This document shows, piece after piece, positions 2,183 to 33,376 of a stretch of DNA of 64,000 nucleotides. The translations under genes were made by a program, and so were the position numbers. This DNA is from a bacterium (GTDB lineage Bacteria > RBG-13-61-14 > DATKZS01), in assembly GCA_963674965.2 (NCBI GenBank), contig CAXXFL010000001.1, forward strand, positions 800,001 through 864,000, written 5' to 3'. Under the pieces are notes generated by a model. It ran no database searches. It saw only the letters and a list, made by a program, of their open reading frames with translations, and was not told the origin of the DNA. Each line of letters opens with the position of its first letter. Position 1 is the stretch's first letter.

Positions 2183-2959
2183 CTATCCGGGTTCCTTCTC
2201 GGCCGTGACCGGGTTTTTAAGCTCGCCCACGCCCTCGACGGACACGACGATCTCGTCGCCCGGCTCCATGGGCCCGATGCCGGGAGGTGTGCCGGTGGCG
2301 ATAACGTCTCCGGGAAAAAGAGTCATCACCCGGGAGATATGCTCGATAATTTTAGGGACGTCGAATATAAGCTCCCTGGTGGTCGAGTCCTGGACCGTCT
2401 TTCCGTTAAGCACGGCCATTACCCGCAAGTTGGCCGGGTCGAGCTCGGTCTCGATCCAGGGGCCGATGGGGCAGAACCCGTCGAATCCCTTGGCCCGGGA
2501 CCACTGCCCGTCCTTAACCTGCAGGTCCCTGGCCGTTACGTCGTTCACGCAAGTGAAGCCGAGAATATAATCATTCGCTTCTCCGGCTTTCACGTGTCTG
2601 GCCTTTCGCCCGATGACTATTCCCAGTTCCGCCTCGTAGTCGACCCGCCTGGTCAATCCCCCGTAAGGATAGGGGATGGGATCGCCCGGGCCTATGACCG
2701 TCGCGCTGGGCTTTAAAAAGATGATGGGCTCCTCGGGAACGGGCACGCCCATCTCCCTGGCGTGGTCCCGGTAATTAAGCCCCAGGGCCACCACCTTGGA
2801 GGGACAAACCGGGGCCAAAAGATCGACCTCGACCGCGCTCGCCGCCGATCCGGTCCTTGCCAGGCCGCCGAAAAGGTCGCCCTCGATAAACTCCACCTCC
2901 GAGGCGGAGAGTATTCCGTATTTAATCGAGCCGCCGAGGCGGCATCTTATCAGTTTCAT
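2183..2959 (-). CDS. Fumarylacetoacetate hydrolase family protein
   Basis: GLNYRDH, FLKP, DYEAEL, NDVTARDLQ, AKGFDGFCPIGP, TGTPPG motifs. Confidence 0.95.
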   Translation of the reverse strand: MKLIRCRLGGSIKYGILSASEVEFIEGDLFGGLARTGSAASAVEVDLLAPVCPSKVVALGLNYRDHAREMGVPVPEEPIIFLKPSATVIGPGDPIPYPYGGLTRRVDYEAELGIVIGRKARHVKAGEANDYILGFTCVNDVTARDLQVKDGQWSRAKGFDGFCPIGPWIETELDPANLRVMAVLNGKTVQDSTTRELIFDVPKIIEHISRVMTLFPGDVIATGTPPGIGPMEPGDEIVVSVEGVGELKNPVTAEKEPG

Positions 2960-3562: not shown

Positions 3563-5365
3563 TTAGAGCTTTTCCCCGCTTTTCTCTTTCTCGTATCTTG
3601 CCCGCCGGGCCTTTAAATAAGCCGGGATGGGAACGTCCCACCAACCCACGGCCGGGCTGCCCGAATGGGGATATTGCCGATTTACGATGACCTCGACCAG
3701 CGCCGGTCCGCCGGCCCTGATGGCCCGCTTGATGGCCGGGCCTACCTCCCCCGGCTTTTGCACCCGCCTCGAGTTCCATCCAAAGGCCTTGGCCGCGGCG
3801 GCGAAATCGGGGGAATAGAGCTTACCCGACGGGTCCGTGAAGTCCGTGCCTATGGCCCTTCCCTCGCCAAAGGCCGCCATTTGCAGGTCCTTGATGGCTA
3901 TCCACCCCTGGTTGTTGTAAACCACGGCCACCACGTCCGCGCCGATCTGTTTGGCCGTTGCCATTTCCTGCATGGTCATCATGAAGTCGCCGTCCCCCAC
4001 CAGAGCGGCCACCACCCGGCCGGGCCGGGCCAGCTTCACCCCGATGGCCGCGGGCAAGGCGAAGCCCATGGTCGAGAAACCGGCCGCGCTTATGCAGGTC
4101 CCGGGCTCGTCGAAGGGAAACTCCTGAAGCACCTGGGCCTGGACGTTGCCCGAGCTGGTCACCACGAAGGCGTCCATGGGCAGGGCCTCCCGCGTCTCCC
4201 TCAAGGCGCGCGAGATGGTGACGGGCGACTTCCTCGAGGACTGGAGCCTGGCAACGTGCTTTGACCACTTGTCCTTATGCTTTTTCAGCTCCTTGACGTA
4301 ATCGAGTTTCCGGTAATCTCGATCCGACAAGGACTCCGTGAGGCTTTCCAAAAGGGACGCAAGGGTGGACTTGGCGTCTCCCACGATCCCCACCTGGACG
4401 GGATAGTTCTTTCCTATCTCCTGCGGGTCTATGTCCACGTGGATGAGCTTGGTGGGGGGAATGGAAAAGGTGGCGCCGTCCTTGTAGCTGGAGGAAGTCT
4501 CGTCGGCGAAGCGGCATCCCACGGCCAGGATCACGTCGGCGGTCCGGGCCATGGCGTTGCCCACGGTCGTTCCCTTTGACCCGCCCAGCCAGGCGGAAAG
4601 AGGATGGGTCTCGGGGAACGATCCCTTTCCCATCAGGGTCGTGATAACCGCCGCGCCCAGGACCTCGGCCAGGGCCTTCAATTCGGGCTCGGCGCCCGCG
4701 GACCTTATTCCGCCGCCCACCAGGATGAGCGGCCTTTTCGCCTTGGCCAAAAGCGCGGCGGCGGCCTCGATCTGGTCCGGGTCTCCCATCACCCTGCCGC
4801 CGGGAAGGCGGGTAGCCGGGTCGGGAATCTCGACGTCGGCGGCCCCGGCCTGGACGTCCATGGGCAGGTCGATAAGGACCGGTCCCCTCCTGCCCGTCAT
4901 CATGAGGTTAAAGGCCCGGTGCATGATGGTGGGTAGCTGGGCGGTCGAGTCGGCCACCCAATAGCGCTTGACCAGGGGCTCGAGCACTCGAGAGAACTCG
5001 TGGTCGTGCCGCCGCTCGATCTCCTGCAACAGGCCTTTTCCCCGCATGTGGACGTGGGCGCCTCCGGTTACGATAAGCACCGGGATGGAATCGACGTAGG
5101 CGTTGCCGGCCCCGATGGCGGTGTTGATGGCGCCCGGTCCGATCGAGGTGAACACGGCCAGGGGCTTGCCGCTTGCCCGGAAGTAGCCGTCCGCCATGTG
5201 GACCCCGGCCATTTCCTGCATGCAGGGAAGCACGCGGATTTTCTTTCGCCCTATAAAGGCGTCGCACAGGCTGAGGTTGCCGTGTCCGGGTATGGCTATG
5301 ACGTAAGGGACACCCTGCTTTACCAGGTATTCGGCCACTATTTGTCCGCCGGTTAGTTTCATCAT
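3563..5365 (-). CDS. Thiamine-diphosphate-dependent enzyme (acetolactate synthase/IolD-like superfamily)
   Basis: IPGHGN, QEMAGVHMADGY, SIGPGAIN, GDGDF...YNN and C-terminal WWDVP; start placed after a GGGGGA RBS. Confidence 0.92.
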   Translation of the reverse strand: MMKLTGGQIVAEYLVKQGVPYVIAIPGHGNLSLCDAFIGRKKIRVLPCMQEMAGVHMADGYFRASGKPLAVFTSIGPGAINTAIGAGNAYVDSIPVLIVTGGAHVHMRGKGLLQEIERRHDHEFSRVLEPLVKRYWVADSTAQLPTIMHRAFNLMMTGRRGPVLIDLPMDVQAGAADVEIPDPATRLPGGRVMGDPDQIEAAAALLAKAKRPLILVGGGIRSAGAEPELKALAEVLGAAVITTLMGKGSFPETHPLSAWLGGSKGTTVGNAMARTADVILAVGCRFADETSSSYKDGATFSIPPTKLIHVDIDPQEIGKNYPVQVGIVGDAKSTLASLLESLTESLSDRDYRKLDYVKELKKHKDKWSKHVARLQSSRKSPVTISRALRETREALPMDAFVVTSSGNVQAQVLQEFPFDEPGTCISAAGFSTMGFALPAAIGVKLARPGRVVAALVGDGDFMMTMQEMATAKQIGADVVAVVYNNQGWIAIKDLQMAAFGEGRAIGTDFTDPSGKLYSPDFAAAAKAFGWNSRRVQKPGEVGPAIKRAIRAGGPALVEVIVNRQYPHSGSPAVGWWDVPIPAYLKARRARYEKEKSGEKL

Positions 5366-5529
5366 ATCCCCCATCATTCGAGTCTCGCGGCGCAAGTCGC
5401 GGGTCTCCTCCCGCCTTGCGTCGCCCGGTCATTTTATAGTATGGATTAGGAGCGGGCAAGGCGGCGAGGACGTCTTTGCCGTTTTCGGCCGGCTTCTAGT
5501 TCGGCGCCGTCGCAAGTAGTGGAAGCAAA

Positions 5530-20745: not shown

Positions 20746-21402
20746 ATGAGCAACGAAGATTCGGGCAACAACAACAACGATAAAAGCGCCAAACAGAGGA
20801 TTCTTGACGCGGCGGTCAAGACCTTTGCCCAGCTTCCCTATCAGTCGGCCAGCACGCGGATGATCGCCAAAGAGGCCGGCGTCGATCATCCCCTTATCCA
20901 TTACTATTTCGGCACCAAAATGAACCTTTTAATGGCCGCCAGCGCCGTGGTTCACGAGGAATTCCAGAGTCAGCACCTCAAATGGCTCGAGGGCTTGAGC
21001 GTGGTTCATCCGCGAGACGGGCTGTCCACCTACCTTGACCGCCTCCTGGATTATGGATTCACCCGTCCCGAGCCGGTCCAGATAGTCATCCTCAATATGG
21101 TCCAGATAGGAAAACGAGGGTCAGAATCCATCCGCTCCGATTATATTATCAAGCACATCCAGATGACCGCCGACACCCTGCGTGAAAAACTGCCTCTAAA
21201 AGGCGACCCCGAGGAAATTACCGCTTTTCTTCAGTGCTTCCATAACCTGGTTATCAACTTCCTGGGCAGCAGGGAATGCCAGGCCGCTTCCCTTGGCATG
21301 GACCCCGACTCGGACCAATATAAAAAATGGGTCAAATCCGCCCTTATGCTCGCCTTTTTGCCCTGGCTGGAAAAGCTGGTGTTCGTAACCGATAATGATT
21401 GA
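20746..21402 (+). CDS. TetR/AcrR family transcriptional regulator
   Basis: ILDAAVKTFA...STRMIAKEAGVDHPLIHYYFGTK helix-turn-helix. Confidence 0.93.
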   Translation: MSNEDSGNNNNDKSAKQRILDAAVKTFAQLPYQSASTRMIAKEAGVDHPLIHYYFGTKMNLLMAASAVVHEEFQSQHLKWLEGLSVVHPRDGLSTYLDRLLDYGFTRPEPVQIVILNMVQIGKRGSESIRSDYIIKHIQMTADTLREKLPLKGDPEEITAFLQCFHNLVINFLGSRECQAASLGMDPDSDQYKKWVKSALMLAFLPWLEKLVFVTDND

Positions 21403-21540: not shown

Positions 21541-23190
21541 ATGAAACACGATTACCCCGTTATTGACGCCGACGTCCTTATCATCGGCGGTGGAAGCGCC
21601 GGCGCCATGGCCGCCATCCGCGCCAAGGAGGTCGATCCCCACCAGGAGGTGGTGGTTTTCGAGAAGGGCCACGTCAAGTACTCGGGCTGCATCGCCCGGG
21701 GCATGGACGCCCTCAATATCGTGGCCATACCCGGCCTGGACACTCCCGAATTGTACGTCGAGTCCAACGGCATCGCCTGCCACGGGGTCATGGACGAGCC
21801 CCAGGCCCTGGTCATGGCCCAGAGGAGCTTTGCCCTTCTTAAAAAACTCGAGTCCTGGGACGTGTGCTTTCCCCTCGATGAAAAGGGCAATTACGAGGTG
21901 CTCCAGGTCCATCCCAAAGGCAAGTTCTGCGTTACCATGAAGGAACCCGAGCTGAAAACCATCCTTGCCAAAAGGTGCCTCGAGCTGGGAGTTCGGGTGG
22001 TCAACCGCACCATGGGCATGCGTCTCATCAAGAACGGCGGGGCCGTCACCGGCGCCATCGGCATGAACGCCCGCACGGGCGAGGTAATGGTATGCCGGGC
22101 CAAGTCGGTCATACTCAGCTCGGGAGGAACGGCAAGGTTCGGCCTGCCCAACAACGGATACCTCTACGGCGTGTACGACTTCCCCGGCAACACCGGCGAC
22201 GGGTACGTCATGGCCTACAAGGCGGGGGCCGAGCTCTCGGGCTTCGAGTACACCTGTATTTACTACATCGTCAAGGACATTAACGCGCCCCTTCTTTACA
22301 TCACCCTCACCAGGGGCGCCCACCTGTTCAACGCCTTTGACCAGGCCTTCCACGAGGAACACCCTGGGATTCCCATGATGCACGACGAGCACCAGGCCAA
22401 CAGGGGCCCCATGCGCATCCGCCTGGACCATCTGCCCGAGGACAAGATACGCGAGGTGGAGGAGCTGCTCTTCTCCACGGAAAGGCCGGTGCAGGAAAGG
22501 TTCTACGAGGGCCGGGGCGTGAATTTCAGGTCGGGCGAGATCGAGCTTTGGCCCACCGAGTGCTTCCTGTGCGGCGGCCACGGCCAGACCGGCGTTCGCG
22601 TTAACGTGAAGGCCGAGACCACCGTGCCCGGCCTATACGCCGCGGGCGACACTTCCCTGGTGGCAAGGGGACACTTGACGGGGGCCTTCGTCTACGGCGA
22701 GATAGCCGCCGAGAACGCCACCGAGTACGCGGCGTCAAAAGGCCGCGTCGAGATCGACCATGGCCAGGTCGAGGATTTCATCCGGGACCGCGACTCCCGT
22801 CTCGGCTCGGGCGCGGGTCCCATTCCCATCGAGGAGTTCGAGTACAAGGTCCGCCGCATGATCAACGATTACATCGTTCCTCCCAAGAACGACTACAAGC
22901 TGAACCGGGCGCTTTGGTGGATGGACCGCTTCAGAAAGGAGCTTTTCGAGGTGGTCAAGGTCAAAGACAGGCACGACCTGTTCAAGACTTATGAGGTTGA
23001 GAACATCATTCAATGCGCCCTTATGAGCGCCCTGGCCTCGCGCGAGCGCAAGGAGAGCAGGTGGGGCCTTTGGCACTACCGCTCGGACTACCCGAAAATG
23101 GACGAAGCCTGGAGAAAGCATATCGTGTTGACCATGGGCGCCTCGCCCGAGGACGTCAAAATAGCCCACGCTCCCGTGGTCACGCTGTGA
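21541..23190 (+). CDS. Fumarate reductase/APS reductase-family flavoprotein subunit (AprA/AsfA-like)
   Basis: IIGGGSAG FAD motif; SGCIARGMDALN; NTGDG; CGGHG; GLYAAGD; RKESRWG...HYRSDYP. Confidence 0.9.
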   Translation: MKHDYPVIDADVLIIGGGSAGAMAAIRAKEVDPHQEVVVFEKGHVKYSGCIARGMDALNIVAIPGLDTPELYVESNGIACHGVMDEPQALVMAQRSFALLKKLESWDVCFPLDEKGNYEVLQVHPKGKFCVTMKEPELKTILAKRCLELGVRVVNRTMGMRLIKNGGAVTGAIGMNARTGEVMVCRAKSVILSSGGTARFGLPNNGYLYGVYDFPGNTGDGYVMAYKAGAELSGFEYTCIYYIVKDINAPLLYITLTRGAHLFNAFDQAFHEEHPGIPMMHDEHQANRGPMRIRLDHLPEDKIREVEELLFSTERPVQERFYEGRGVNFRSGEIELWPTECFLCGGHGQTGVRVNVKAETTVPGLYAAGDTSLVARGHLTGAFVYGEIAAENATEYAASKGRVEIDHGQVEDFIRDRDSRLGSGAGPIPIEEFEYKVRRMINDYIVPPKNDYKLNRALWWMDRFRKELFEVVKVKDRHDLFKTYEVENIIQCALMSALASRERKESRWGLWHYRSDYPKMDEAWRKHIVLTMGASPEDVKIAHAPVVTL

Positions 23191-23200
23191 GGAAACCGAC

Positions 23201-24808
23201 ATGAGCCGACTCAACCTTCTCGAAGCCCTTACCGACAATATAGTCATCGATCCCGCCAAGTGCATTTTCTGCGGCGAGTGCGTCGAGGTCTGCGTCCTGG
23301 ACAACCTCCGCATGAAGCTCGCGCCCTGCCGCGCCGCCTGCCCCCTCGGGGTCAACTGCCAGGGGTACGTCCAACTGGTCAACAGGGGAGAAGACGCCAA
23401 GGCCCTGGCCGAGCTGATGAAGGTCCTGCCCTTTCCCGGGACCTTGTCCCGCGTGTGCACGGCCCCCTGCGAGAACGCCTGCCACCGCAAGGAGCGGACC
23501 GGCGAGGCCGTTTCCATTCGGGGAATAAAAAGGTACCTGGCCGATTTGGACGACTTCATCGAGAGGCCTTTGCCCGAGATGGCGGAGGCATCGGGCCAGT
23601 CCGTCGCCATTATCGGTTCCGGACCGGCCGGCATGATGGCGACTTACGATCTGAGAAGAAAAGGGCACGCGGTCACCGTCATCGAGGCCGAAAGAGAGGC
23701 GGGAGGAATGCTCAGGTGGGCCATCCCGGCCTTTAACCTGCCCGCCAAGGTCGTGGCCGCCGAGATCGAAAGCCTCCAACAAATGGGCGCGTCCTTTCAG
23801 CTCGGGACCAGGGTGGGCAAGGACCTCACCCTCGAGGAAATAAAAGACCGGCACGACGCGGTTATCGTGGCCGTCGGGTGCGGCGGACACCTGAAGCTGA
23901 ACCTCGAGGGCGAAGACCTTGGCGGCGTGTATCACGGGCTGCCCTTTTTGCGGGACGTGAGGGCGGGAAAGCCGCCTCAAATGGGCGGCAAGGTCGTGGT
24001 CATAGGAGGCGGCAACGCCGCCGTGGACGCGGCCCGGACGGCCCTTCGGCTGGGGGCCGACTCGGTTACGCTCGTGTCCCTGGAAAACGAGGACGAGTTG
24101 CCGGCTTTCGCTGAGACGGTCGATATAGCCCGCGAAGAAGGCGTTGTCCTCGAGCACTCGTGGGGGACCCTCGAAATAGCCGGCAAAAACGGCAAGGCCG
24201 TAGCGGTACGTCTGCAAAGGTGTCTTTGCGTCTTTGACGGGGAGGGAAAGTTCAATCCTTCATTCGACGCCTGCCAGATAATGGACCTTCCGGCCGACCA
24301 GGTTATCGTGGCCATTGGCCAGCGACGCGACGCGTCCTGCCTCGAGGGCATGGGGATCGAGCCGGCCGAGGCCGATCCCGTGACCAAAGCCACTTCCGAT
24401 GAAAAGGTCTTCCTCGCGGGCGACTTTATCGGCGGACCGTCCTCGATTATCGAGGCCATGGCCTCGGGACGCGCCGCCGCCGAGTCGGTGGACCTGTTCC
24501 TGAAAGGGGAACACCTGAAATACGGGCGCTCCTATCCCGGTCCCATCGAGCTCGAGTTCGAGATCGACGAGTCGCGAGGATCGGGCCTTTCCCGAATCAA
24601 GCCCAAGCACAAAATTTGCAAAGGGAAAGGCGACTTCAAGGAAACGGCCGCGGCCATGACCACGAAGCAGGCCAGGGACGAGGCCTCCCGCTGCTACTCG
24701 TGCGGTTCACCCTTCGGCAAGTACCGCACCTGCTGGTTCTGCCTCCCCTGCGAGGTCGAGTGCCCCGAGCAGGCACTATACGTCGAGATCCCTTATTTGC
24801 TGAGGTGA
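23201..24808 (+). CDS. GltD/NfnB-like FAD/NAD(P) oxidoreductase fused to a 2x[4Fe-4S] ferredoxin
   Basis: CIFCGECVEVC; APCRAACP...RVCTAPCENAC; IIGSGPAG; VIGGGNAAVD; EASRCYSC; CWFCLPCEVECP...IPYLLR. Confidence 0.9.
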   Translation: MSRLNLLEALTDNIVIDPAKCIFCGECVEVCVLDNLRMKLAPCRAACPLGVNCQGYVQLVNRGEDAKALAELMKVLPFPGTLSRVCTAPCENACHRKERTGEAVSIRGIKRYLADLDDFIERPLPEMAEASGQSVAIIGSGPAGMMATYDLRRKGHAVTVIEAEREAGGMLRWAIPAFNLPAKVVAAEIESLQQMGASFQLGTRVGKDLTLEEIKDRHDAVIVAVGCGGHLKLNLEGEDLGGVYHGLPFLRDVRAGKPPQMGGKVVVIGGGNAAVDAARTALRLGADSVTLVSLENEDELPAFAETVDIAREEGVVLEHSWGTLEIAGKNGKAVAVRLQRCLCVFDGEGKFNPSFDACQIMDLPADQVIVAIGQRRDASCLEGMGIEPAEADPVTKATSDEKVFLAGDFIGGPSSIIEAMASGRAAAESVDLFLKGEHLKYGRSYPGPIELEFEIDESRGSGLSRIKPKHKICKGKGDFKETAAAMTTKQARDEASRCYSCGSPFGKYRTCWFCLPCEVECPEQALYVEIPYLLR

Positions 24809-24889: not shown

Positions 24890-25345
24890 TCAATCCACGT
24901 CCACCTCCTCTTTACATTGTCTGCACCTTTTGGCGCCGCGGAAGAGGGGGTAGCCGCAGCTTGGGCAGTGGTATCTTTTTTCCTCAGCCTTGACCCAGGC
25001 CTCGGTCCCCATCTCGCGCCACTCGGGAATGGCCCGGAGCATGACCCTCTTGCCCACGGGCATGGGAAACTTCCGGATATGCTCGCAAGGGAAGTCGTCG
25101 CACTGGTGACATCCCTCGATGCCCTTGGCCTGGACGCAGCTCTTGATGGCGCAGACCTTGCAGAAGCCGAAGACGTCGTCCGACAGGCAGCCCTTGCAAT
25201 GAAGGTCCTCGGGCCTGGTACCGTACACCGTGCAAAGACGCTCCTTGAATTTCTCGTTGCCGTCCCTGTCCGCGATCAGGATTCCGCAGACGCCGCAATA
25301 GAGCCCGCATGGAGCGAGCAGGTCTTTATTAATCGTCATATCCAT
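24890..25345 (-). CDS. DUF3795 Cys-rich protein with C-terminal Zn ribbon
   Basis: APCGLYCGVC, CKGC, CAIKSC, GCHQCDDFPC; CPSCG...CRQC. Confidence 0.85.
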   Translation of the reverse strand: MDMTINKDLLAPCGLYCGVCGILIADRDGNEKFKERLCTVYGTRPEDLHCKGCLSDDVFGFCKVCAIKSCVQAKGIEGCHQCDDFPCEHIRKFPMPVGKRVMLRAIPEWREMGTEAWVKAEEKRYHCPSCGYPLFRGAKRCRQCKEEVDVD

Positions 25346-25362: not shown

Positions 25363-26910
25363 CTACGATTGTTTGACCAGCCAGAACGAGGGCCGGGACT
25401 TCTCCCCATCCCCCGGCGCCTCGCCCGGCGTTAGTGAATTCACGGAGCAGCCCAGCCCGCGGAGCACGGCCTCGAGCCGATCATGGGCCGCTCCTTCCCC
25501 GGGACCCACCACGATCACGCGCATATTCAGGCCCAGGCCCACCGCCGTCTGCAGTTCCTGAAGGTGTCTTAATAGCGCGTCCCTGTCCGTGACCAGGGTG
25601 GTCCGGTAGCCCGGAGAGGCCAGCCGAGCGCCGATGGCAAAGGGAAGGCCCGGCCCGGACAGGTACTTTCCGTTCATGATATGCAGACCCTTGTTGGCGG
25701 ACGCGCTGAAAAAGGCGCCGGCCATGGCCCGAGGCTCCACTCCGTCAACAACTATCCTGTCTTTGTTTGTAAAGGAGTCGGCAAGACCCTCAAACAGGCG
25801 CGCGTGCTTGGGGTCCGCCGCTGTTATTTTTTCGCGGGCCGATTTTCCCGCCCCCTTTACCTTGTTCATCCAGTCGGGCCAGGACGCCTCTTGCAAGTCG
25901 ATTTCATCGAGAAAGGAAATAGGGTCGGCGTTAACGCGGACGCCGGCTGGGATGAGTCCGTTCAAGGCGGATGGATCCAGCTCGACCTGCACGATATCTC
26001 CGGAAAAGGCGCCCATTGATTCGATCAGGTCCATGATCTCGGGGTCCACGCCGATCACCAGCAAGAGGTCGGCCTCGGCCAGGATTGCCATGCCGTCCTC
26101 ATCGCCGGCATAGGTGGCGATCAAGCCGCAATAGGCCGGGTCGGCGCCGCTCATGGCGGCGGAACTGGTGATGGACGCCAGAGCGGGCAGGCCCAGCCGG
26201 TTAAGCCGGTCCCGAAGTTTCTCATGCCGGCCAGGCCTTCCCATGCCCTGACCGATCAAGGCGACGGGCCTTTGGGCGGCCGCGATCGATCGCGATCCCG
26301 CCTCGACCTTTTCCTTTTCTCCGGGCACGCCTCCGCGGGACCTGGTGTTCCTGGCCGGCGGCGTTATTTTGGCCGCCTTTTCCTGCGTCAGCTTTCCCGT
26401 CTTGAACAGGACGTCCACGGGGACGTCCAGGTGGACGGGACCGGGCGCGTCGGCCAGGGCCTCGCGCAGGGCCCGGTTTATCATCTGAGGGACCCGGTCC
26501 CAATGATAGACGATGGCGTGCCACTTGGTGATGGGCGCGAAGATTTCGTCCTGGTTGCATCCCTGCAGGTTCTCCTGGTGCGGCTTCATCTTCCAGCTTT
26601 GCACCTGAGGAGCGACGGATATGACGGGCAGATAGTTGAACCATGCGTCCATCAGGCCCGCCACCTCGTAAACCACGCCCGCGCCCACCGTGCACATCGA
26701 GACGGCCGGAACGCCCGAGGCCGCCGCGTAGCCGCTCGCCATGATGGGGACCGCCGTCTCGTTCCTGAGCGTGACCAGCTCGAGATCCGGACGCTCGCTA
26801 ACCGCGTCGTAGACCGAGCACATCTGCCCTCCGATGATGGAGAAGACGTAACGCGCGCCCTGGTCCGCCAGGGCCTTAACCAATAACTCGCCTCCCGTCA
26901 GCCTGGCCAT
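25363..26910 (-). CDS. ThDP-enzyme-family protein with near-canonical PYR domain and degenerate diphosphate-binding domain
   Basis: LTGGELLV, RNETA, GPVHLDVP present; GDG replaced by TDRD and no NN motif. Confidence 0.85.
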   Translation of the reverse strand: MARLTGGELLVKALADQGARYVFSIIGGQMCSVYDAVSERPDLELVTLRNETAVPIMASGYAAASGVPAVSMCTVGAGVVYEVAGLMDAWFNYLPVISVAPQVQSWKMKPHQENLQGCNQDEIFAPITKWHAIVYHWDRVPQMINRALREALADAPGPVHLDVPVDVLFKTGKLTQEKAAKITPPARNTRSRGGVPGEKEKVEAGSRSIAAAQRPVALIGQGMGRPGRHEKLRDRLNRLGLPALASITSSAAMSGADPAYCGLIATYAGDEDGMAILAEADLLLVIGVDPEIMDLIESMGAFSGDIVQVELDPSALNGLIPAGVRVNADPISFLDEIDLQEASWPDWMNKVKGAGKSAREKITAADPKHARLFEGLADSFTNKDRIVVDGVEPRAMAGAFFSASANKGLHIMNGKYLSGPGLPFAIGARLASPGYRTTLVTDRDALLRHLQELQTAVGLGLNMRVIVVGPGEGAAHDRLEAVLRGLGCSVNSLTPGEAPGDGEKSRPSFWLVKQS

Positions 26911-26920
26911 GCCCGCCTCC

Positions 26921-28756
26921 TCATCCCTGGATAAAGCTTCTGTAGATGTAGCCGCCGCGCTCGACCGCTCGATGGAACCCGTCGGACCGGCTCTTCCAGG
27001 TCCCGGCCATAACGTTCAGCGGACTAAGCTCGACCCCGTCGAACTCGACCAGGGCGAAGGATATGATCGCGTCTGGATAGTTGGTCTTGTCGGTGATCAC
27101 GTTGAGAAGGGCCGGCTTGCCCGATTTGGCGGCCCTGTCGTAGGCGGGCACTATATCGTCCGCTTTTGTTACCGTCTCCGAGTAAAAGCCGAAGCCCCTG
27201 GCTATACCCGCGTAGTCGATCTCGGGCAGGTCGGTCCCGACGTAATTGCAGGCGTACATCGAGGTCTGGGCGCAGCGGATCATGTTCCAGGCCGAGTCGT
27301 TGTTGATCACGATGATGATGGGAAGTCCCCGTTCGGCGATGGTCTCGAGTTCCTGCACGTTATAAAGCATGCTGCCGTCGCCCGTGCAGAGCATGACCCG
27401 CCGGTCCGGGTTGGCCAGTTGCATGCCCACGGCCGCCGGCACGCCCGCCCCGAGGGCCGCCATTCCGAAGGGGAAATACATCTGTCCGGGCTCGAGACTG
27501 GGCGCGTACATGGCCGCGTAAAGGGCCGTGTTGCCGCCGTCGATCACCATGAGCACCTTATCCGCGAGGACCCTCTCGCCCAGGGCGTGAGCCAGCCGGC
27601 CCTGGTGGATTTGAGGCCAATCCCGGTAGGCTTCCTTTAACAGCCGCGCCCTCCTGGCCTTTTTCATGGATACAAGTTTCTCCCTCCAATCCTTCCAGGC
27701 GGAAGGCGGTGTGAAACCCCGCCGGTCCATTTCCTCCCCAAGCTGGGTCAAGAAGGTCCTAACGTCCGCCCTGACCGGCACGCTCGGGCTGACGTTAAGC
27801 CCGATCTGGAGAGGGTCCGTATCCACGTGTATGAACTTGATCTTGCCCGACCAAAGCGGCGGAAGCCCGAAGCCCTCGAGCCCGCCAAAGGCCGTGCCCA
27901 GGGCCAGCACAAGGTCGGCCTTGCGGATGGCTCGGTGGAAGACCTCCCCCGCCGCGTAGCTGGGACCGCCTATGTAACACTCGTGTTCCGAGGATATACA
28001 ACCCATGCCCGCCATGGTGTGAGTCACGGGAATCCCGGACCTGGAAAGAAAAGACGCCAGCTCTTCCTCGGCCTCGGATCGCTTCGAGCCGGCGCCGCAA
28101 AAACATAAAGGCCGCTTTGCCTTGGCCAGGAGGTCCATCGCCTCCCTTACCGCGTCCGGCTCGGCCCTCATGCGGGGGGGCTTGAACGCGGGGGGCGTCA
28201 GCCGGGAGAGGAGCGAGGCGGGGTCCGTCTCGGCCGCCTCGGAAAGGAGTCTCTCCGGCACGTCGATATGGACCGGACCGGTCCGTCCCGTCACGCTCTC
28301 GGCCGCTCCCCTGGCCAGGAGACGAGGAATATCCTCGGCCGTCTCGGCCCGGGCGCTCCATTTTGTGACCGGCTTGAAGACCGCCGTCTGGTCGAACCTT
28401 CGCCTGTCCACCCCCTTGTTGGCGTCGGGAAGACGGCCGTCGCAAAGGGAGATCGAGATAAGCGGAATCTTGTCGGCCCAGGCGTTGGTCACCGCGCTCA
28501 CCTGCGCCAGCGAGCGGCCGCCCGAGCCGGTGACCACCGCGCTTAAGGCCCTCGAGCTATAGGTATAGGCGTTAGCCATGGCTGCCGCGGCGGTCTCGTC
28601 CCTGGCCTTGACCAGCTGGAGGTCGTCGCCCGAGGCCGAGTCGATGACCTGGCCCAGGCGTCCGGTCCGGTTGTCGTCCACCGTAAAAACGTGGTCCACC
28701 CCCAGGTGAAGCAGGGTCTGTAAGACCAGTTCCGCTCCGATTACGGGTCCACCCAT
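26921..28756 (-). CDS. ThDP-enzyme-family protein with intact diphosphate-binding domain and altered PYR domain
   Basis: GDGSMLY...INNDSAWNMI intact; GPVHIDVP; N-terminal loops non-canonical. Confidence 0.9.
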   Translation of the reverse strand: MGGPVIGAELVLQTLLHLGVDHVFTVDDNRTGRLGQVIDSASGDDLQLVKARDETAAAAMANAYTYSSRALSAVVTGSGGRSLAQVSAVTNAWADKIPLISISLCDGRLPDANKGVDRRRFDQTAVFKPVTKWSARAETAEDIPRLLARGAAESVTGRTGPVHIDVPERLLSEAAETDPASLLSRLTPPAFKPPRMRAEPDAVREAMDLLAKAKRPLCFCGAGSKRSEAEEELASFLSRSGIPVTHTMAGMGCISSEHECYIGGPSYAAGEVFHRAIRKADLVLALGTAFGGLEGFGLPPLWSGKIKFIHVDTDPLQIGLNVSPSVPVRADVRTFLTQLGEEMDRRGFTPPSAWKDWREKLVSMKKARRARLLKEAYRDWPQIHQGRLAHALGERVLADKVLMVIDGGNTALYAAMYAPSLEPGQMYFPFGMAALGAGVPAAVGMQLANPDRRVMLCTGDGSMLYNVQELETIAERGLPIIIVINNDSAWNMIRCAQTSMYACNYVGTDLPEIDYAGIARGFGFYSETVTKADDIVPAYDRAAKSGKPALLNVITDKTNYPDAIISFALVEFDGVELSPLNVMAGTWKSRSDGFHRAVERGGYIYRSFIQG

Positions 28757-28789: not shown

Positions 28790-29409
28790 TCAGGCCCCGT
28801 CCATTCCTACTGATTTGATCAACAAGTCTATGGATTCCATGTATTCCTCGAGAGTAAGGTAGTCGTATTCCAAAGAAAGGTTGACGGCCATGCCCACCAC
28901 CAGGCCGACCAGCACCCGGCCGATGCCTTTGACCGGCAGGTGCTCGGGGACCCTTCCCTCCTCCTTGGCCCGCTCGAGGAGCCGGGCGATCAGTTCCATG
29001 ATGGCCTTATCGTAAATCTGGAGCTCGGCCCGCATGTCCGCGTCCCGGGTCATGATGGGTATGAGCATGCACTTGACCAGATGGGGGTACTGGGCGTTGA
29101 TGAAATGATAGTGCAGCTCGACCACCTTGCGTACTCCCTGGTAGGGGTCGTCGTAAAGCTCCATGGTCCTCTCGACCAGGTTGATGGCCAGGCGGCGCGC
29201 CTCCCGGAGAATCTCGATAAAAAGTTCCTTCTTTCCGCTGAAGTGGAGGTATATGGTCGCCTCGCTCACTCCCGCGGCCCTGGCGATCCTGGCGGTGGTC
29301 GCTCCTCGTAACCCTCCTGGGCGAACACGTGGGCGGCCACCTCGAGTATCTGATTTTTCCTGTCCTCGCCGCTCATTCTTTTCGCGGTTTTTTTGATTTT
29401 TTCTGGCAA
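28790..29409 (-). pseudogene. TetR family regulator with a 1-nt deletion frameshift in the helix-turn-helix region
   Basis: RKNQILEVAAHVFAQEGYE continues in another frame as ATTARIARAAGVSEATIYLHFSGKKELF; shift at ~29303-29307; could be a sequencing error. Confidence 0.8.
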
Positions 29410-29452
29410 TATAATTCGGTCCTTTGTCTCGTATTGTTCCCGCATTTTATTT

Positions 29453-29468
29453 GTGAGCAATTACTCAC
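29453..29468. promoter_or_regulatory. Palindromic putative TetR operator GTGAGCAATTACTCAC
   Basis: 14/16 palindrome just downstream of a minus-strand TTGACA (29488-29493) and upstream of the TetR gene. Confidence 0.6.
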
Positions 29469-30537: not shown

Positions 30538-31971
30538 CTGAACTTTAGAACTTTTCGTCATGGTTTGCACCTATAACCATCAAGCAGCCTCCTTGAGGGG
30601 CGCAATTTCGTCGGGTTTGGGGTCGGAATGGAAACCGGGAGAAATTCGCAAAGCCTTGTAGAAAGCGCGTCGGAGCCTGCCCACCGCCGGCGGCCCGGCG
30701 GGGATCCACCACGGCTCGGCCTCGATCTTTTCCGCGTCCGGGACGCTCAGCGCGAGCATGCCCAACAGGCTGTATGCGACCAGGCACAGGTTGGCGTGCC
30801 GCTTGATCGCGGTGAAGGACCTCTGACGGTAGTCGCCGAACCCGCCGGTGGTCTTCACTTCGCGGAACAACTCCTCGATCTTCCAGCGACCCGAATAAAT
30901 CTCCAGGCCCCGGGCCGGGTCCATTTCGACGTCGGTGGTGAAGAACACGTTCATCTTTTTACCGGAGCGTTGCGGAAAGATGATCACAAGGATGGGCCTG
31001 TCTCCGAGGGTGACGCTGGGGATCATGACCGACACGAAGGCCTCGACGGTCACGGTCTTGCCGTAAATACTGGCCTTGATCTTTTCGCGCTTCGATCTTT
31101 TCAACCACAGTTGTTGGGGGCTGAACTTCTTGCCGCGCTTGGGCGGCCTTCCCGGACCATTCTTCCTTTTGGGCAATTCGTAAAGGGCGGCGTTGGAGCG
31201 GAGGCGGCTGATCAGGACCACCTCTTTGCCGTCGAACTCGAGACCGGCCAGCTTGGCCTCGGCGTAGAGGTTGTCCACCACCAGGACCAGTCTTCGAGCG
31301 GGCCAGGAGAGTCTCTTTATCATCATGGCGGCCAACTCGATCTTGGTTTTGAACTCCCATCCCTTCTCGCAAGCCTTTTGCGGCACGAACAAGAGCGCCG
31401 AGAGCGGGAAGGCGAACCACTTGCCCCCGCGCTCCCAAAGCAGCGCCATCGCCACCCAGCAGTGTCCGAGCACGCGTCGCTTTTGATGGCCGGGGTTCTT
31501 GTCCGTCGGGTCCGGGTAGTAGCCAAGTCCGAAGAACTTCTTGCCCCATTTCTTGACCAGGGCGTCGTCGATGGCGACGACGATCTCGTCCATGATTTCG
31601 AGGCGTTCGGACAAAAGGTCGAGCAGGGTCTGGGATACTTGCTTGCACGACCACCGGCCCTTGCGAAGGAATGCGTAAGGCGTGGTCCAGTGCATGATGG
31701 CGTGGACCTGGGTGAGGCGCATGACCTCGGTGACGCGGTGCTGGAGACCGAACAGCGCCGCGTGGGCAATGATGAAGGTCTGGAAGTGCTCGAAACCCGG
31801 CCCGGTGAAACAGTTGACAAACACGAGCAAGAGCGGCAACATAAAAGCCTGAGCGTTCATCGGCATTCACTCCCGCGTAATGACCAAGCCACACACTTAT
31901 CATTATACGGGAAAAACTGATGAACGCTATTTTTGTTTGGCTGAACATGGTCAAAAAGTTCTAAAGTTCAG
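30538..31971. mobile_element. IS701-like insertion sequence (1434 bp)
   Basis: Perfect 18-bp terminal inverted repeats CTGAACTTTAGAACTTTT (30538-30555 and 31954-31971) around a DDE transposase; no target duplication seen. Confidence 0.9.
30580..31866 (-). CDS. IS701-like DDE transposase
   Basis: AIDD...KWGKK, GHCWV, VVDNLY, ISRLRSNAALY, YSGRWKIEELFREVK. Confidence 0.92.
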   Translation of the reverse strand: MPMNAQAFMLPLLLVFVNCFTGPGFEHFQTFIIAHAALFGLQHRVTEVMRLTQVHAIMHWTTPYAFLRKGRWSCKQVSQTLLDLLSERLEIMDEIVVAIDDALVKKWGKKFFGLGYYPDPTDKNPGHQKRRVLGHCWVAMALLWERGGKWFAFPLSALLFVPQKACEKGWEFKTKIELAAMMIKRLSWPARRLVLVVDNLYAEAKLAGLEFDGKEVVLISRLRSNAALYELPKRKNGPGRPPKRGKKFSPQQLWLKRSKREKIKASIYGKTVTVEAFVSVMIPSVTLGDRPILVIIFPQRSGKKMNVFFTTDVEMDPARGLEIYSGRWKIEELFREVKTTGGFGDYRQRSFTAIKRHANLCLVAYSLLGMLALSVPDAEKIEAEPWWIPAGPPAVGRLRRAFYKALRISPGFHSDPKPDEIAPLKEAA

Positions 31972-32026
31972 CAATGATAACAGATGGATGAATTGTCTAC
32001 TAATCTCGAAGAAGGGAGATTTAGTC

Positions 32027-33376
32027 ATGAGGGCTAAGATCGGGATGGCGTTGGTTGGGGTTTTAATTATGGCCGTGGTGGTAGGCATTGCTGGGGCGCG
32101 GTCAACTCCGCAACTTATAAATTACCAGGGGCGGCTCACCAATGCGGCGGGCCAGCCGCTTGCGGACGGTACTACTGTGGATTTGACTTTCGCGTTCTAT
32201 GGCGTAGAAACGGGCGGGACGGCGTACCTCACGGTTCTCCAGGAAGACGTGGTGGTGAACGGCGGTATTTACAACGTGCTCATCGGCTCGGGCACGGTAG
32301 CGCCGGGATCCGAGCCCAACCTGGGCGCCGTGTTCCAGAACCACCAGAACGTGTGGATGGGGGTCGAGGTTGACGGCGACGGGGTGATGTCGCCGCGGGC
32401 GAGAATCGCCAGCGTGCCTTTCGCTGAAAAAGCAAACGCCGTGAACACGAGCTGGCTCGATGTATACATGGAATCTTCCGATTACGATGGGGACGGTTAT
32501 CTAAAGCTTATGGTTGGGGGCACGGACTGTGATAACAATAACGCTGCGGTAAATCCAGGCGCTTCCGAAATCTGCGATGACGGTTTCGACAACGATTGCG
32601 ATGGGGACATTGACGGAAATGATTCAGATTGTGCTCCTCCCGGCGTGGCCCTGATCCCCTCGGGCTGCTTCGACATGGGCGACGCGTTCAGCGAGGGCCG
32701 CAGCAATGAGCTTCCGATCCATAATGTATGCATTACCTCGAATTTCTACATGGACATGTATGAGGTGACCAACTCGAAGTATGCGGCCTGCGTTACCGGC
32801 GGCGGTTGCACGGCTCCGGGTAGTTCAGGCAGTTTCCGGCGAGTGTCATATTATGGAAATCCCACTTACGATGATTATCCCGTTATCTATATAGAATGGA
32901 ACCAAGCCACGGCCTACTGCACCTGGGCGGGCAAGAGACTCCCCACTGAGTCTGAATGGGAATATGCAGCCCGTGGCGGACTGGCTGGAAAGAGGTATCC
33001 TCATGGAGACAGCATATCTTGCTCAGATGCTAATTATGCTAGATATAGTTCATTTGAAGACTGCTGGGATTTCGGAGGCCTTGAAAACGATACCCACCAG
33101 GTTGGGAGCTATATTGCCAATGGCTACGGGCTTTATGATATGGCCGGAAATGCTTGGGAAATGGTCCATGATTGGTATTCAAACAGCTATTATCAGTATT
33201 GCGTAGATAACAATATAGTGAATGACCCTCCAGGGCCCGCGCCAGATAGGTATCACGTTGTACGCGGTGGCGGTTGGGACTTTGATACCTCCAACCTGCG
33301 AGTTGCGGGCCGGACCACGTACGGTGTGTCTACTTTTCTGGACGGTGCCGTAGGCTTCCGTTGCGCTGCGGACTGA
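32027..33376 (+). CDS. Exported protein with MopE-like Cys/Asp motif and C-terminal FGE-sulfatase (SUMF1/C-lectin fold) domain
   Basis: RBS AAGGGAG; signal peptide; LINYQGRLT domain; DCDNNNAAVNPGASEICDDGFDNDCDG; YEVTN, RLPTESEWEYAARG, GLYDMAGNAWE, RGGGW, GFRCA. Confidence 0.9.
   Translation: MRAKIGMALVGVLIMAVVVGIAGARSTPQLINYQGRLTNAAGQPLADGTTVDLTFAFYGVETGGTAYLTVLQEDVVVNGGIYNVLIGSGTVAPGSEPNLGAVFQNHQNVWMGVEVDGDGVMSPRARIASVPFAEKANAVNTSWLDVYMESSDYDGDGYLKLMVGGTDCDNNNAAVNPGASEICDDGFDNDCDGDIDGNDSDCAPPGVALIPSGCFDMGDAFSEGRSNELPIHNVCITSNFYMDMYEVTNSKYAACVTGGGCTAPGSSGSFRRVSYYGNPTYDDYPVIYIEWNQATAYCTWAGKRLPTESEWEYAARGGLAGKRYPHGDSISCSDANYARYSSFEDCWDFGGLENDTHQVGSYIANGYGLYDMAGNAWEMVHDWYSNSYYQYCVDNNIVNDPPGPAPDRYHVVRGGGWDFDTSNLRVAGRTTYGVSTFLDGAVGFRCAAD

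What the first reader, a model, noticed from the sequence alone, without database searches (positions are those of the whole stretch)
25363..28756. Tandem ThDP enzymes with reciprocal loss of active-site halves: predicted obligate heterodimer
Established: ThDP active sites form between the PYR domain of one subunit and the PP domain (GDG...NN) of the other. Seen: the 515-aa protein keeps PYR features (IIGGQ loop, RNE Glu, TVGAG, PQ, LQ) but its PP motif is destroyed (TDRDA, no NN, shortened C-terminus). The 611-aa protein has an intact GDGS...INNDSAW, but its PYR loops are eroded (VDDN for the G-x-PG loop, GGRSLAQ for GPG-x-N, no GQ or FQE), although the Glu remains. The genes are 10 bp apart. 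Inference: subfunctionalised paralogs forming an alpha-beta enzyme with one active site per pair, perhaps for a bulky acyl-CoA or other large substrate.
Basis: partly seen in the sequence, partly recalled or inferred. Interest (0 to 1): 0.75.

Follow-up and report, generated by a model that had tools for sequence, protein, structure and literature searches.

The report
Two-gene thiamine enzyme with complementary halves
Two adjacent genes encode full-length copies of a thiamine-dependent enzyme in which each copy has kept only the half of the cofactor site that the other has lost, so they most likely work only together, a conserved but apparently undescribed way of building this kind of enzyme.

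Summary
Window 26921-28756(-) encodes a 611-aa ThDP enzyme ("alpha") with an intact GDGS...NND motif. After a 10-nt gap holding GGAGG, 25363-26910(-) encodes a 515-aa paralogue ("beta") with D-R-D in place of G-D-G and about 80 C-terminal residues missing.

The pair is not a local decay product.
- In 31 of 32 other loci examined, an alpha orthologue lies directly upstream of beta, abutting or overlapping it.
- Conservation is reciprocal. Beta's PYR domain is its best-kept part (33% invariant columns, Glu51 in 77/77). Alpha's M and PP domains are its best-kept parts (GDG Asp and the Mg-binding Asn in 88/88), and its PYR active-site loops vary freely.
- All domains are under purifying selection (dN/dS 0.06-0.47).
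- A rare single-gene relative joins a beta-type PYR domain to an alpha-type M+PP+tail.

Best reading (about 0.78): an obligate alpha-beta heteromer with one competent ThDP site per pair, probably a BAL/HACL-like C-C lyase or ligase of unknown substrate. My searches found no paper describing this arrangement. This scan reported the same pairing earlier in another genome (e1-367358).

The parts
26921..28756 (-). alpha subunit gene, 611 aa. Full three-domain ThDP enzyme with a competent PP (diphosphate/Mg) site, a conserved middle domain and a C-terminal tail.
   Evidence: AF2 model pLDDT 90.1.
25363..26910 (-). beta subunit gene, 515 aa. Same three-domain fold, with a highly conserved PYR domain and a degenerate, shortened PP domain.
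   Evidence: AF2 model pLDDT 90.1, pTM 0.92. Foldseek TM 0.82 to AHAS and BAL.
26911..26920 (-). 10-nt alpha-beta junction. GGAGG Shine-Dalgarno lies directly after alpha's TGA and 5 nt before beta's ATG.
   Evidence: In other loci the junction ranges from 8-nt overlap to an 18-nt gap, with starts chosen by my script.
27296..27382 (-). alpha ThDP-Mg motif, G459-D460-G461-S...N485-N486-D487.
   Evidence: G459, D460, N486 and D487 are present in 88/88 alpha-family sequences.
26386..26910 (-). beta PYR domain (aa 1-175) with the catalytic Glu51 and the invariant loops FSI.GGQM, TVGAGVVYE, QVQSW and QE.LQ.
   Evidence: 33.5% invariant columns in 19 pairs. E51 in 77/77. dN/dS 0.06-0.19.
25501..25587 (-). 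beta vestigial metal site. D442-R443-D444 replaces G-D-G, and G469 sits at the Mg-ligand Asn position.
   Evidence: In the family, position 443 is K in 55 and R in 9 of 77, and position 469 is D in 73 of 77. A basic-acidic pair occurs in 63/77. The window's R/G combination is unique.
28202..28756 (-). alpha vestigial PYR domain (aa 1-185). The fold is kept and E54 is kept, but the active-site loops are variable.
   Evidence: 8.9% invariant columns. Positions 26-30 and 77-84 are highly variable, and no Gly appears among the six commonest residues listed at the position of superfamily Gly27.
26924..27076 (-). alpha C-terminal tail (aa 561-611), helical and conserved (P561, S566, F567, E571, G574), absent from beta.
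24890..25345 (-). DUF3795 Cys-rich protein, 17 nt downstream of beta and probably co-transcribed here. It is not a conserved partner.
   Evidence: No tblastn hit in any other locus.
28790..29460 (-). TetR-family regulator gene directly upstream of alpha, apparently frameshifted. It is not a conserved partner.

Best explanation
The two genes encode the subunits of one heteromeric ThDP-dependent enzyme of the decarboxylase (AHAS/BAL/HACL-like) superfamily.

In this superfamily each cofactor site lies between the PP domain of one chain and the PYR domain of the partner chain. That is established knowledge, and the superfamily positions used here are taken from PMC3534367.

Here alpha supplies the PP domain that anchors ThDP-Mg (GDG...NN), the middle domain and a C-terminal lid. 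Beta supplies the PYR domain with the activating Glu51 and the loops that line the active site.

The mirror-image site (alpha PYR plus beta PP) is dead. The Mg-ligand Asp is replaced by Lys/Arg, the Mg-ligand Asn mostly by Asp, the residue that wedges ThDP into its V shape is not conserved, and the end of the PP domain is missing.

Each alpha-beta pair therefore has one competent site. The holoenzyme is probably a dimer of such pairs, as the family is usually tetrameric (inferred).

The pair arose by duplication of an undivided homomeric enzyme followed by complementary loss.

The chemistry is most likely C-C bond cleavage or formation next to a carbonyl (benzaldehyde-lyase / 2-hydroxyacyl-CoA-lyase-like). 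The substrate is unknown.

Shown: gene structure, motifs, synteny, conservation patterns, selection, and the undivided relative. Inferred: physical association, one ThDP per pair, and the reaction.
For: 1. Synteny. An alpha orthologue lies directly upstream of beta in 6/7 genome-contig loci, 18/18 assessable metagenome loci, 5/5 further loci of the window's phylum and 2/2 further genomes of a 301-genome class sample. That is 31 of 32 loci, some of them near-duplicates (L001/L025, L036/L037). The junctions range from 8-nt overlap to an 18-nt gap. In the window, GGAGG follows alpha's stop.

2. Reciprocal conservation in 19 pairs, as mean column identity / invariant fraction:
- alpha: PYR 0.65 / 8.9%, M 0.71 / 24.5%, PP 0.72 / 18.8%;
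- beta: PYR 0.78 / 33.5%, M 0.56 / 3.5%, PP 0.62 / 7.3%.

3. Residues. Alpha has G459, D460, N486 and D487 in 88/88 and the wedge Leu435 in 85/88. Beta has E51, F23, S24, I25, G27 and T74-V79, Y81, E82 in 77/77. Alpha's loop 26-30 is hypervariable. Beta's GDG Asp is K/R in 64/77.

4. Undivided homologue. A 606-aa single gene in a genome of the same phylum has all three Pfam domains strong (112/107/119 bits). Its PYR domain is 50% identical to beta against 31% to alpha. Its M domain is 48% to alpha against 22% to beta, and its PP domain is 40% against 19%. Its tail is 36% identical to alpha and has no counterpart in beta.

5. Domain trees. Alpha, beta and the undivided form make one clade (support 0.999 for PYR, 0.982 for M+PP). 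Stem lengths are reciprocal: in PYR, alpha 0.51 against beta 0.26; in M+PP, beta 1.12 against alpha 0.11.

6. Co-diversification. Pairwise identities of alpha and beta correlate at r=0.97, with 0 of 2000 Mantel permutations reaching this value.

7. Purifying selection in every domain (dN/dS 0.06-0.47 in 7 pairs). Both proteins give confident three-domain models.
Against: Alpha keeps its own PYR Glu: E54 in 19/19 syntenic pairs and in 73/88 of the wider alignment, with Asp in the other 15. A fully dead site does not explain this. It leaves room for alpha-alpha catalytic dimers or for some function of the second site.

One locus (L002, from a 97%-complete MAG) has an intact beta beside only a 127-aa C-terminal remnant of alpha, and no other alpha orthologue was found in that genome. 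This may be an assembly artefact or real decay.

No direct evidence of binding was obtained.

The domain-tree position of the undivided form relative to alpha is weakly supported in the PYR tree (0.21), so the order of events is not resolved.

Synteny and co-diversification alone would also be seen for two separate enzymes of one operon.
Confidence: 0.78

Rival explanations
1. Alpha forms ordinary alpha-alpha catalytic dimers with two active sites. Beta is a non-catalytic paralogue that acts as a regulatory or stabilising subunit in an alpha2-beta2 assembly, in the manner of a 'prozyme'.
For: Alpha has all three Pfam domains above threshold and keeps E54 in 19/19 syntenic pairs. Beta cannot anchor ThDP-Mg itself. 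Dead paralogues that activate their active partner are known in other enzyme families (PMC5201418 and PMC3663545, seen as search listing and abstract only).
Against: Alpha's PYR loops that would line such a site are hypervariable among orthologues, and the superfamily's Gly27 is lost. A merely regulatory beta would not need Glu51 and about one third of its PYR columns invariant. The undivided relative carries a beta-type PYR domain, not an alpha-type one. In the PYR tree, the alpha stem is about twice as long as the beta stem.
Confidence: 0.12
2. A heteromer as in the best explanation, but the second site (alpha PYR plus beta PP) is not dead. It binds a ligand without Mg, such as ThDP held by the Lys/Arg, a nucleotide or a CoA moiety, and has a structural or allosteric role.
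For: Alpha E54 is conserved. Beta keeps D389-G390 and G419-x-G421-L-P-F-A-I-G-A of the PP fold as invariant or nearly invariant. A conserved basic residue sits at the metal-ligand position, with an acidic partner in 63/77. Beta's PP domain is under purifying selection (dN/dS 0.12-0.42).
Against: The conserved beta PP residues are also fold determinants. The wedge position (beta 418) is variable. The end of the PP domain is missing. A Lys-Asp pair is more simply read as a salt bridge filling the empty metal site. No ligand was tested.
Confidence: 0.08
3. Beta is a decaying duplicate with no function, or the two are independent enzymes that merely share an operon.
For: Beta's PP motif is destroyed and its C-terminus is short. 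In one locus beta persists beside a broken alpha.
Against: Beta is intact across four named phylum-level groups plus the window's own unnamed phylum, at 35-60% identity. Its dN/dS is 0.06-0.47. Fifty-one columns are invariant in 77 sequences. It is always adjacent to alpha, with abutting or overlapping genes. Alone, it lacks the ThDP-Mg anchor that the superfamily needs.
Confidence: 0.02

Closest known systems
Split ThDP decarboxylases: sulfopyruvate decarboxylase ComD/ComE and phosphonopyruvate decarboxylase RhiE/RhiF
   Same: The PYR and PP functions sit on two different polypeptides encoded by adjacent genes, and the cofactor is bound at the hetero-interface (PMC12141560, passages read).
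   Different: Those subunits are single-domain halves, PYR-only and PP-only. Here both subunits are full-length three-domain proteins that keep a vestigial copy of the lost half. They descend from a duplication of a whole gene, not from a split or a pre-fusion state.
Benzaldehyde lyase, 2-hydroxyacyl-CoA lyase / oxalyl-CoA decarboxylase, cyclohexane-1,2-dione hydrolase (homomeric DC-superfamily enzymes)
   Same: These are the best solved relatives of alpha by sequence: formolase/BAL E 2.5e-57, HACL 3e-50, CDH 8e-49. They share the fold and the ThDP motif, and the likely chemistry is similar (C-C cleavage or ligation next to a carbonyl).
   Different: They are homomers with two equivalent sites per dimer. 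Alpha scores far below the curated cut-offs (HACL model 226.6 bits against 600), so it is not a member of those families.
Heteromeric ThDP enzymes of other superfamilies (2-oxoacid dehydrogenase E1 alpha/beta; two-subunit 2-oxoacid:ferredoxin oxidoreductases)
   Same: PP and PYR domains lie on different chains (recalled knowledge; PMC5020499 seen as abstract only).
   Different: They have a different domain order and superfamily, and neither chain carries a vestigial second half.
Dead-paralogue activators ('prozymes') such as trypanosomatid AdoMetDC prozyme and deoxyhypusine synthase
   Same: A duplicated enzyme in which one copy has lost catalytic residues and the active enzyme is a heteromer (abstracts of PMC5201418 and PMC3663545).
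   Different: There one paralogue is dead and the other is complete. Here the loss is reciprocal, so neither copy is complete.
Acetone-activating ThDP enzyme of Desulfococcus biacutus / Desulfosarcina cetonica
   Same: An uncharacterised AHAS-like ThDP enzyme of anaerobes, thought to act on ketones and CoA esters (PMC7888143, passages read).
   Different: It is a single 77.6-kDa protein encoded beside a B12-dependent mutase. No mutase lies in the loci studied here, and none of them has that architecture.

Membership tests
ThDP-dependent decarboxylase (DC) superfamily (Pfam TPP_enzyme_N / M / C) | Three-domain PYR - middle - PP architecture | tested here: met
   All three Pfam domains are above gathering score in both proteins. 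Beta's C domain passes only narrowly (25.6 bits against 21.9) and is partial (13-80/151). The AF2 models are three-domain, and the beta model has TM 0.82 to AHAS and BAL.
ThDP-dependent decarboxylase (DC) superfamily | Activating glutamate of the PYR domain (standard position E51, 94% of the superfamily; PMC3534367) | tested here: met
   Beta has E51 in 77/77. Alpha has E54 in 73/88, with Asp in the other 15.
ThDP-dependent decarboxylase (DC) superfamily | GDG-X24-27-N(N) ThDP-Mg motif in the PP domain (G443 98%, D444 91%, N471; PMC3534367) | tested here: not met
   Met by alpha (G459, D460, N486 in 88/88). Not met by beta, which has D-K/R-D/E at G-D-G and Asp (Gly in the window) at the Asn position. 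The pair meets it only jointly.
ThDP-dependent decarboxylase (DC) superfamily | Gly at standard position 27 in the PYR active-site loop (91% of the superfamily; PMC3534367) | tested here: not met
   Met by beta (G27 in 77/77). Not met by alpha: the aligned position 28 is T/S/E/A/D/H, and the whole 26-30 loop is variable.
Biosynthetic acetolactate synthase large subunit (TIGR00118) | Score at or above the curated cut-off of the equivalog model | tested here: not met
   Alpha scores 265.3 bits and beta 169.2 bits against a cut-off of 538.35.
2-hydroxyacyl-CoA lyase (NF058623) / oxalyl-CoA decarboxylase (NF006721) | Score at or above the curated cut-off | tested here: not met
   Alpha scores 226.6 bits against 600 and 197.7 bits against 557. 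Beta is not among the best 25 hits.
Split ThDP decarboxylases (ComDE / RhiEF type) | Subunits are single PYR-only and PP-only domains | tested here: not met
   Both subunits carry all three domains.
Obligate paralogous heteromer (the claim made here) | Physical alpha-beta association with one ThDP per pair | not testable with these tools
This needs co-purification and cofactor stoichiometry.

The most novel reading that the evidence does not exclude
This is a natural 'frozen half-of-the-sites' ThDP enzyme. After duplication of a homodimeric ancestor, one of the two symmetric sites was permanently silenced by complementary loss. Its metal position was refilled by a Lys/Arg-Asp salt bridge, and the silent site, with alpha's still-conserved Glu54, was kept as a structural or allosteric partner of the live site. 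The live site, built from lineage-specific loops of beta PYR and alpha M/PP/tail, catalyses a not yet described C-C cleavage or ligation in anaerobic breakdown of a keto or hydroxy CoA ester.
Probability: 0.2. Interest if true: 0.8.

Novelty: new variant of a known kind. Interest (0 to 1): 0.66.

Why it matters
ThDP enzymes of this superfamily are textbook homodimers with two symmetric shared sites. Whether both sites are needed and whether they communicate ('half-of-the-sites' reactivity) is an old question.

A conserved natural enzyme with one site permanently removed, plus a living undivided relative for comparison, would be a clean system for that question. It would also be a clear case of complementary degeneration (subfunctionalisation) acting on the two halves of a single active site.

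There is a practical point too. These genes are annotated as 'acetolactate synthase large subunit' or 'thiamine pyrophosphate-binding protein'. Anyone expressing either gene alone, for example when screening for carboligases, would probably get an inactive protein.

The family is patchy but widespread in anaerobes. The source names seen include Desulfatibacillum, Syntrophaceae, Smithella, Brocadiaceae, Actinobacteria and Bacillota MAGs. Its substrate is unknown.

Tried and rejected
- Complex prediction (alpha full length plus beta 1-190). The one accepted job failed. The tool was then declared unavailable. No result exists, so nothing can be said on binding from it.
- Expression.
- Literature. 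Eight searches found no paper on a full-length, reciprocally degenerate ThDP paralogue pair. They found only split forms (PMC12141560) and dead-paralogue systems in other enzyme families. Subscription journals and unsearched PMC articles are not covered.
- Acetone-activation enzyme of sulfate reducers. It has a different architecture (single 77.6-kDa protein beside a B12 mutase). Rejected as the same system.
- The window's own neighbours as functional clues. DUF3795 and TetR have no counterpart in any other locus. The flavoprotein genes at 21541-24808 are convergent, not co-transcribed. None of the SDR, crotonase, VOC, ACAD or AraC neighbours seen elsewhere has a homologue in the window.
- NCBIfam naming of those neighbours gave only generic SDR, enoyl-CoA hydratase and acyl-CoA dehydrogenase hits below cut-offs.
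- Promoter/terminator scan. There were no promoter-like sites, and the terminator-like hits lie inside coding sequence.
- ESM Atlas. It returned only generic ThDP clusters.
- The pseudogene reading of beta was rejected.
- The partner of the roughly 604-aa actinobacterial alpha-like clade with Glu-to-Asp could not be checked.
Full report
**What is there**

Two ORFs lie head to tail on the minus strand: 26921-28756 (611 aa, 'alpha') and 25363-26910 (515 aa, 'beta'). Alpha's TGA is followed directly by GGAGG, five more bases, and beta's ATG.

Pfam finds the three domains of the ThDP decarboxylase superfamily in both.
- Alpha: C-terminal (PP) domain full and strong (124.6 bits), N-terminal (PYR) domain weaker (54.7 bits).
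- Beta: the reverse, with N 82.6 bits and C only 25.6 bits over the first half of the profile.

The two are 27% identical. No curated NCBIfam model reaches its cut-off for either protein. Alpha's best solved relatives are formolase/benzaldehyde lyase (2.5e-57), actinobacterial 2-hydroxyacyl-CoA lyase (3e-50) and cyclohexane-1,2-dione hydrolase (8e-49). Beta's best is E. coli AHAS I (6e-38).

**The motifs**

The pairwise alignment puts beta's D442-R443-D444-A on alpha's G459-D460-G461-S, and beta's V468-G469-P470 on alpha's N485-N486-D487. Beta therefore lacks both Mg ligands of the GDG...NN motif. Its chain ends a median of 53 residues after that point in the family, against 135 in alpha.

Beta keeps FSIIGGQM, E51, TVGAGVVYE, APQVQ and QENLQ. 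Alpha has TVDDNR and GSGGRSLAQ at the corresponding loops but keeps E54.

**The pair is conserved, not a local accident**

Beta has about 90 relatives of 283-839 aa (mostly 508-540) at 33-60% identity. Most have no recorded PF02775 hit. They come from MAGs that their sources name Desulfatibacillum, Syntrophaceae, Desulfosudaceae, Brocadiaceae, Actinobacteria and others. Alpha has a matching set at 45-81% identity. Twelve alpha-beta couples in the two lists share the same longest-contig length.

DNA context is the stronger evidence. An alpha orthologue sits directly upstream of beta in:
- 6 of 7 loci from species-representative genomes;
- 18 of 18 metagenome loci that include the upstream flank; L043 starts inside beta and L044 is not an orthologue;
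- 5 further loci in the window's own small phylum of 13 genomes;
- 2 further genomes from a 301-genome sample of the class that holds the Smithella MAG, where beta was found in only 4 of 301.

That makes 31 of 32 loci, with some near-duplicates (L001/L025, L036/L037). Using start codons picked by my script, the genes overlap by up to 8 nt (usually 4) or are at most 18 nt apart.

The exception is L002, from a MAG rated 97% complete. There an intact beta follows only the last 127 codons of alpha, and no other alpha orthologue was found in that genome. I cannot tell assembly error from real decay.

**Reciprocal constraint**

In 19 non-identical syntenic pairs, mean column identity and invariant fraction are:

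| Subunit | PYR | M | PP | Tail |
|---|---|---|---|---|
| alpha | 0.65 / 8.9% | 0.71 / 24.5% | 0.72 / 18.8% | 0.65 / 17.6% |
| beta | 0.78 / 33.5% | 0.56 / 3.5% | 0.62 / 7.3% | 0.46 / 0% |

In the larger alignments (A1 with 77 beta, A2 with 88 alpha):
- Alpha's G459, D460, N486 and D487 are invariant, and the ThDP 'wedge' Leu435 is present in 85/88.
- Beta's E51, F23, S24, I25, G27, the run T74-V79 with Y81 and E82, and Q104, Q112, E113, L115 and Q116 are invariant.
- Alpha's loop 26-30 shows six or more residue types per column. It has lost the glycine that 91% of the superfamily keeps at standard position 27 (PMC3534367, passages read).
- In beta the Mg-ligand Asp is Lys in 55 and Arg in 9 of 77. 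The Mg-ligand Asn position is Asp in 73 of 77. A basic-acidic pair occurs in 63 of 77. The simplest reading is a salt bridge filling the former metal site (inference). The window's own beta is the only R/G combination.
- Beta's wedge position 418 is variable.

**Selection and co-evolution**

Nei-Gojobori dN/dS in seven pairs of orthologues is below 0.5 in every domain.
- Beta: PYR 0.06-0.19, M 0.11-0.47, PP 0.12-0.42.
- Alpha: PYR 0.11-0.21, M 0.08-0.23, PP 0.07-0.15.

So even the vestigial parts are kept as folded scaffolds. Both proteins give confident three-domain AlphaFold models (pLDDT 90.1 each). The only poorly predicted stretch of beta is 107-113, inside the conserved SWKMKPHQE loop, as expected of a loop that orders only in a complex (inference).

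Pairwise identities of alpha and beta across loci correlate at r=0.97, with 0 of 2000 Mantel permutations reaching this value. That shows inheritance as a unit. By itself it does not show binding.

**The undivided relative**

One genome of the same phylum has neither alpha nor beta. It has instead a single 606-aa gene with no paralogue beside it (L023/L045). All three of its Pfam domains are strong (112/107/119 bits), and it has Glu, GDG and the Mg-ligand Asn.

Domain by domain, averaged over the 19 alpha and 19 beta sequences:

| Domain of the undivided protein | Identity to alpha | Identity to beta |
|---|---|---|
| PYR | 31% | 50% |
| M | 48% | 22% |
| PP | 40% | 19% |
| Tail | 36% | absent from beta |

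It shares beta's lineage-specific QVQSWKM.P..E.LQGC loop. It also shares alpha's GGPSY..G..FH.AIK...VVLA.G..F.GLEGFG.PP.W and SFA.VEF.G elements. The parts that selection preserves separately in alpha and beta therefore sit together in one chain in a relative. This is the strongest indirect evidence that beta PYR and alpha M/PP/tail form one active site.

Only five close orthologues of the undivided form were found. FastTree domain trees put alpha, beta and the undivided form in one clade (0.999 and 0.982) with reciprocal stem lengths. The branching order inside that clade is weakly supported (0.21 in the PYR tree).

**What is not explained**

Alpha's Glu54 is kept in 19/19 syntenic pairs. In the wider alignment it is Glu in 73/88 and Asp in 15/88. 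Fourteen of the 15 Asp cases belong to a roughly 604-aa actinobacterial clade whose pairing I could not check.

A wholly dead second site does not need this residue. It may be structural, part of inter-site communication, or a sign that the second site binds something. I keep those readings as rivals.

**Function**

The window's own context is uninformative.
- The TetR gene upstream is apparently frameshifted.
- A DUF3795 gene lies 17 nt downstream, with no counterpart elsewhere.
- An IS-type transposase is nearby.

In the Desulfobacterota-type loci the pair is followed by an SDR (12 of 32 locus rows, window included), a 345-aa crotonase-family protein (8) and a VOC/glyoxalase-like protein (5). 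It is preceded by an AraC regulator (8). Acyl-CoA dehydrogenase and DUF362-ferredoxin genes lie nearby. An acyl-CoA-ligase-type gene lies near the undivided form.

Together with alpha's nearest solved relatives, this points to C-C cleavage or ligation on a keto or hydroxy compound, possibly a CoA ester. Nothing here identifies the substrate.

**Comparison with what is known**

Putting PYR and PP on different chains is well known: ComDE and RhiEF (PMC12141560), and E1 alpha/beta and OFORs (recalled). Catalytically dead paralogues that complete an enzyme are also known in other families (abstracts).

The difference here is that two full-length DC-superfamily paralogues each retain a vestigial copy of the half they lost, and an undivided relative is still extant. 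Eight literature searches found no description of this. The library misses most subscription journals.

An earlier agent of this scan reported the same arrangement in another genome (e1-367358). That is not independent evidence, but my tests agree with it.

**Verdict**

Association and activity are untested. I class it as a new variant of a known kind, with interest 0.66.

Noticed in passing
window 28790-29460 (-): The TetR-family gene directly upstream of alpha looks frameshifted. The first HTH helix (MSGEDRKNQILEVAAHVFAQEGYE...) is in the frame of 29266-29460. The rest (…ARIARAAGVSEATIYLHFSG… to the end) is in the frame of 28790-29446.
   Followed up: partly
window 30580-31866 (-), with 30628-31920 (+) antisense ORF: A DDE transposase (DDE_5 / DDE_Tnp_1) lies about 1.8 kb upstream of the operon. 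A 430-aa ORF with no family runs antisense to it and is probably a shadow ORF.
   Followed up: no
window 3563-5395 (-) and 2183-2959 (-): A second ThDP enzyme with strong matches to several acetolactate-synthase/ThDP models (610 aa; TIGR00118 404 bits, below its cut-off) lies upstream of a fumarylacetoacetate-hydrolase-family gene. The genome holds at least 8 DC-superfamily paralogues.
   Followed up: partly
L002:2849-4813 (a genome of the window's phylum, G004): An intact beta gene is preceded by only the last 127 codons of alpha. No other alpha orthologue was found in that 97%-complete MAG. This is either a chimeric assembly or a decaying locus.
   Followed up: partly
proteins P0201-P0238 (about 604 aa, MAGs named Actinobacteria, Anoxymicrobiaceae, Solincola): A deep alpha-like clade has Asp in place of the PYR glutamate (PLGDIAG) and an even more degenerate PYR domain. 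Whether it has a beta partner could not be checked.
   Followed up: partly
G005 (contigs C225 and C265; loci L024, L018): One genome of the window's family carries two complete alpha-beta pairs (alpha 66% and 64%, beta 51% each, relative to the window's proteins).
   Followed up: no
window 21541-24808 (+): A FrdA/AprA-like flavoprotein (PRK08275, 546 bits) and a GltD-like Fe-S NAD(P) oxidoreductase (PRK12771, 423 bits) lie behind a TetR gene (20746-21402). They are convergent with the ThDP operon, and their function is unknown.
   Followed up: no
window 31880-33376 (+): A 498-aa protein combines a MopE-type metal-binding motif with an FGE-sulfatase (formylglycine-generating enzyme-like) domain.
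   Followed up: no
beta residues 107-113 (window about 26572-26592, -): This is the only low-confidence stretch of the beta model (pLDDT below 50). It falls in a stretch where most residues are invariant or nearly invariant (SWKMKPHQE), suggesting a mobile active-site or interface loop.
   Followed up: no
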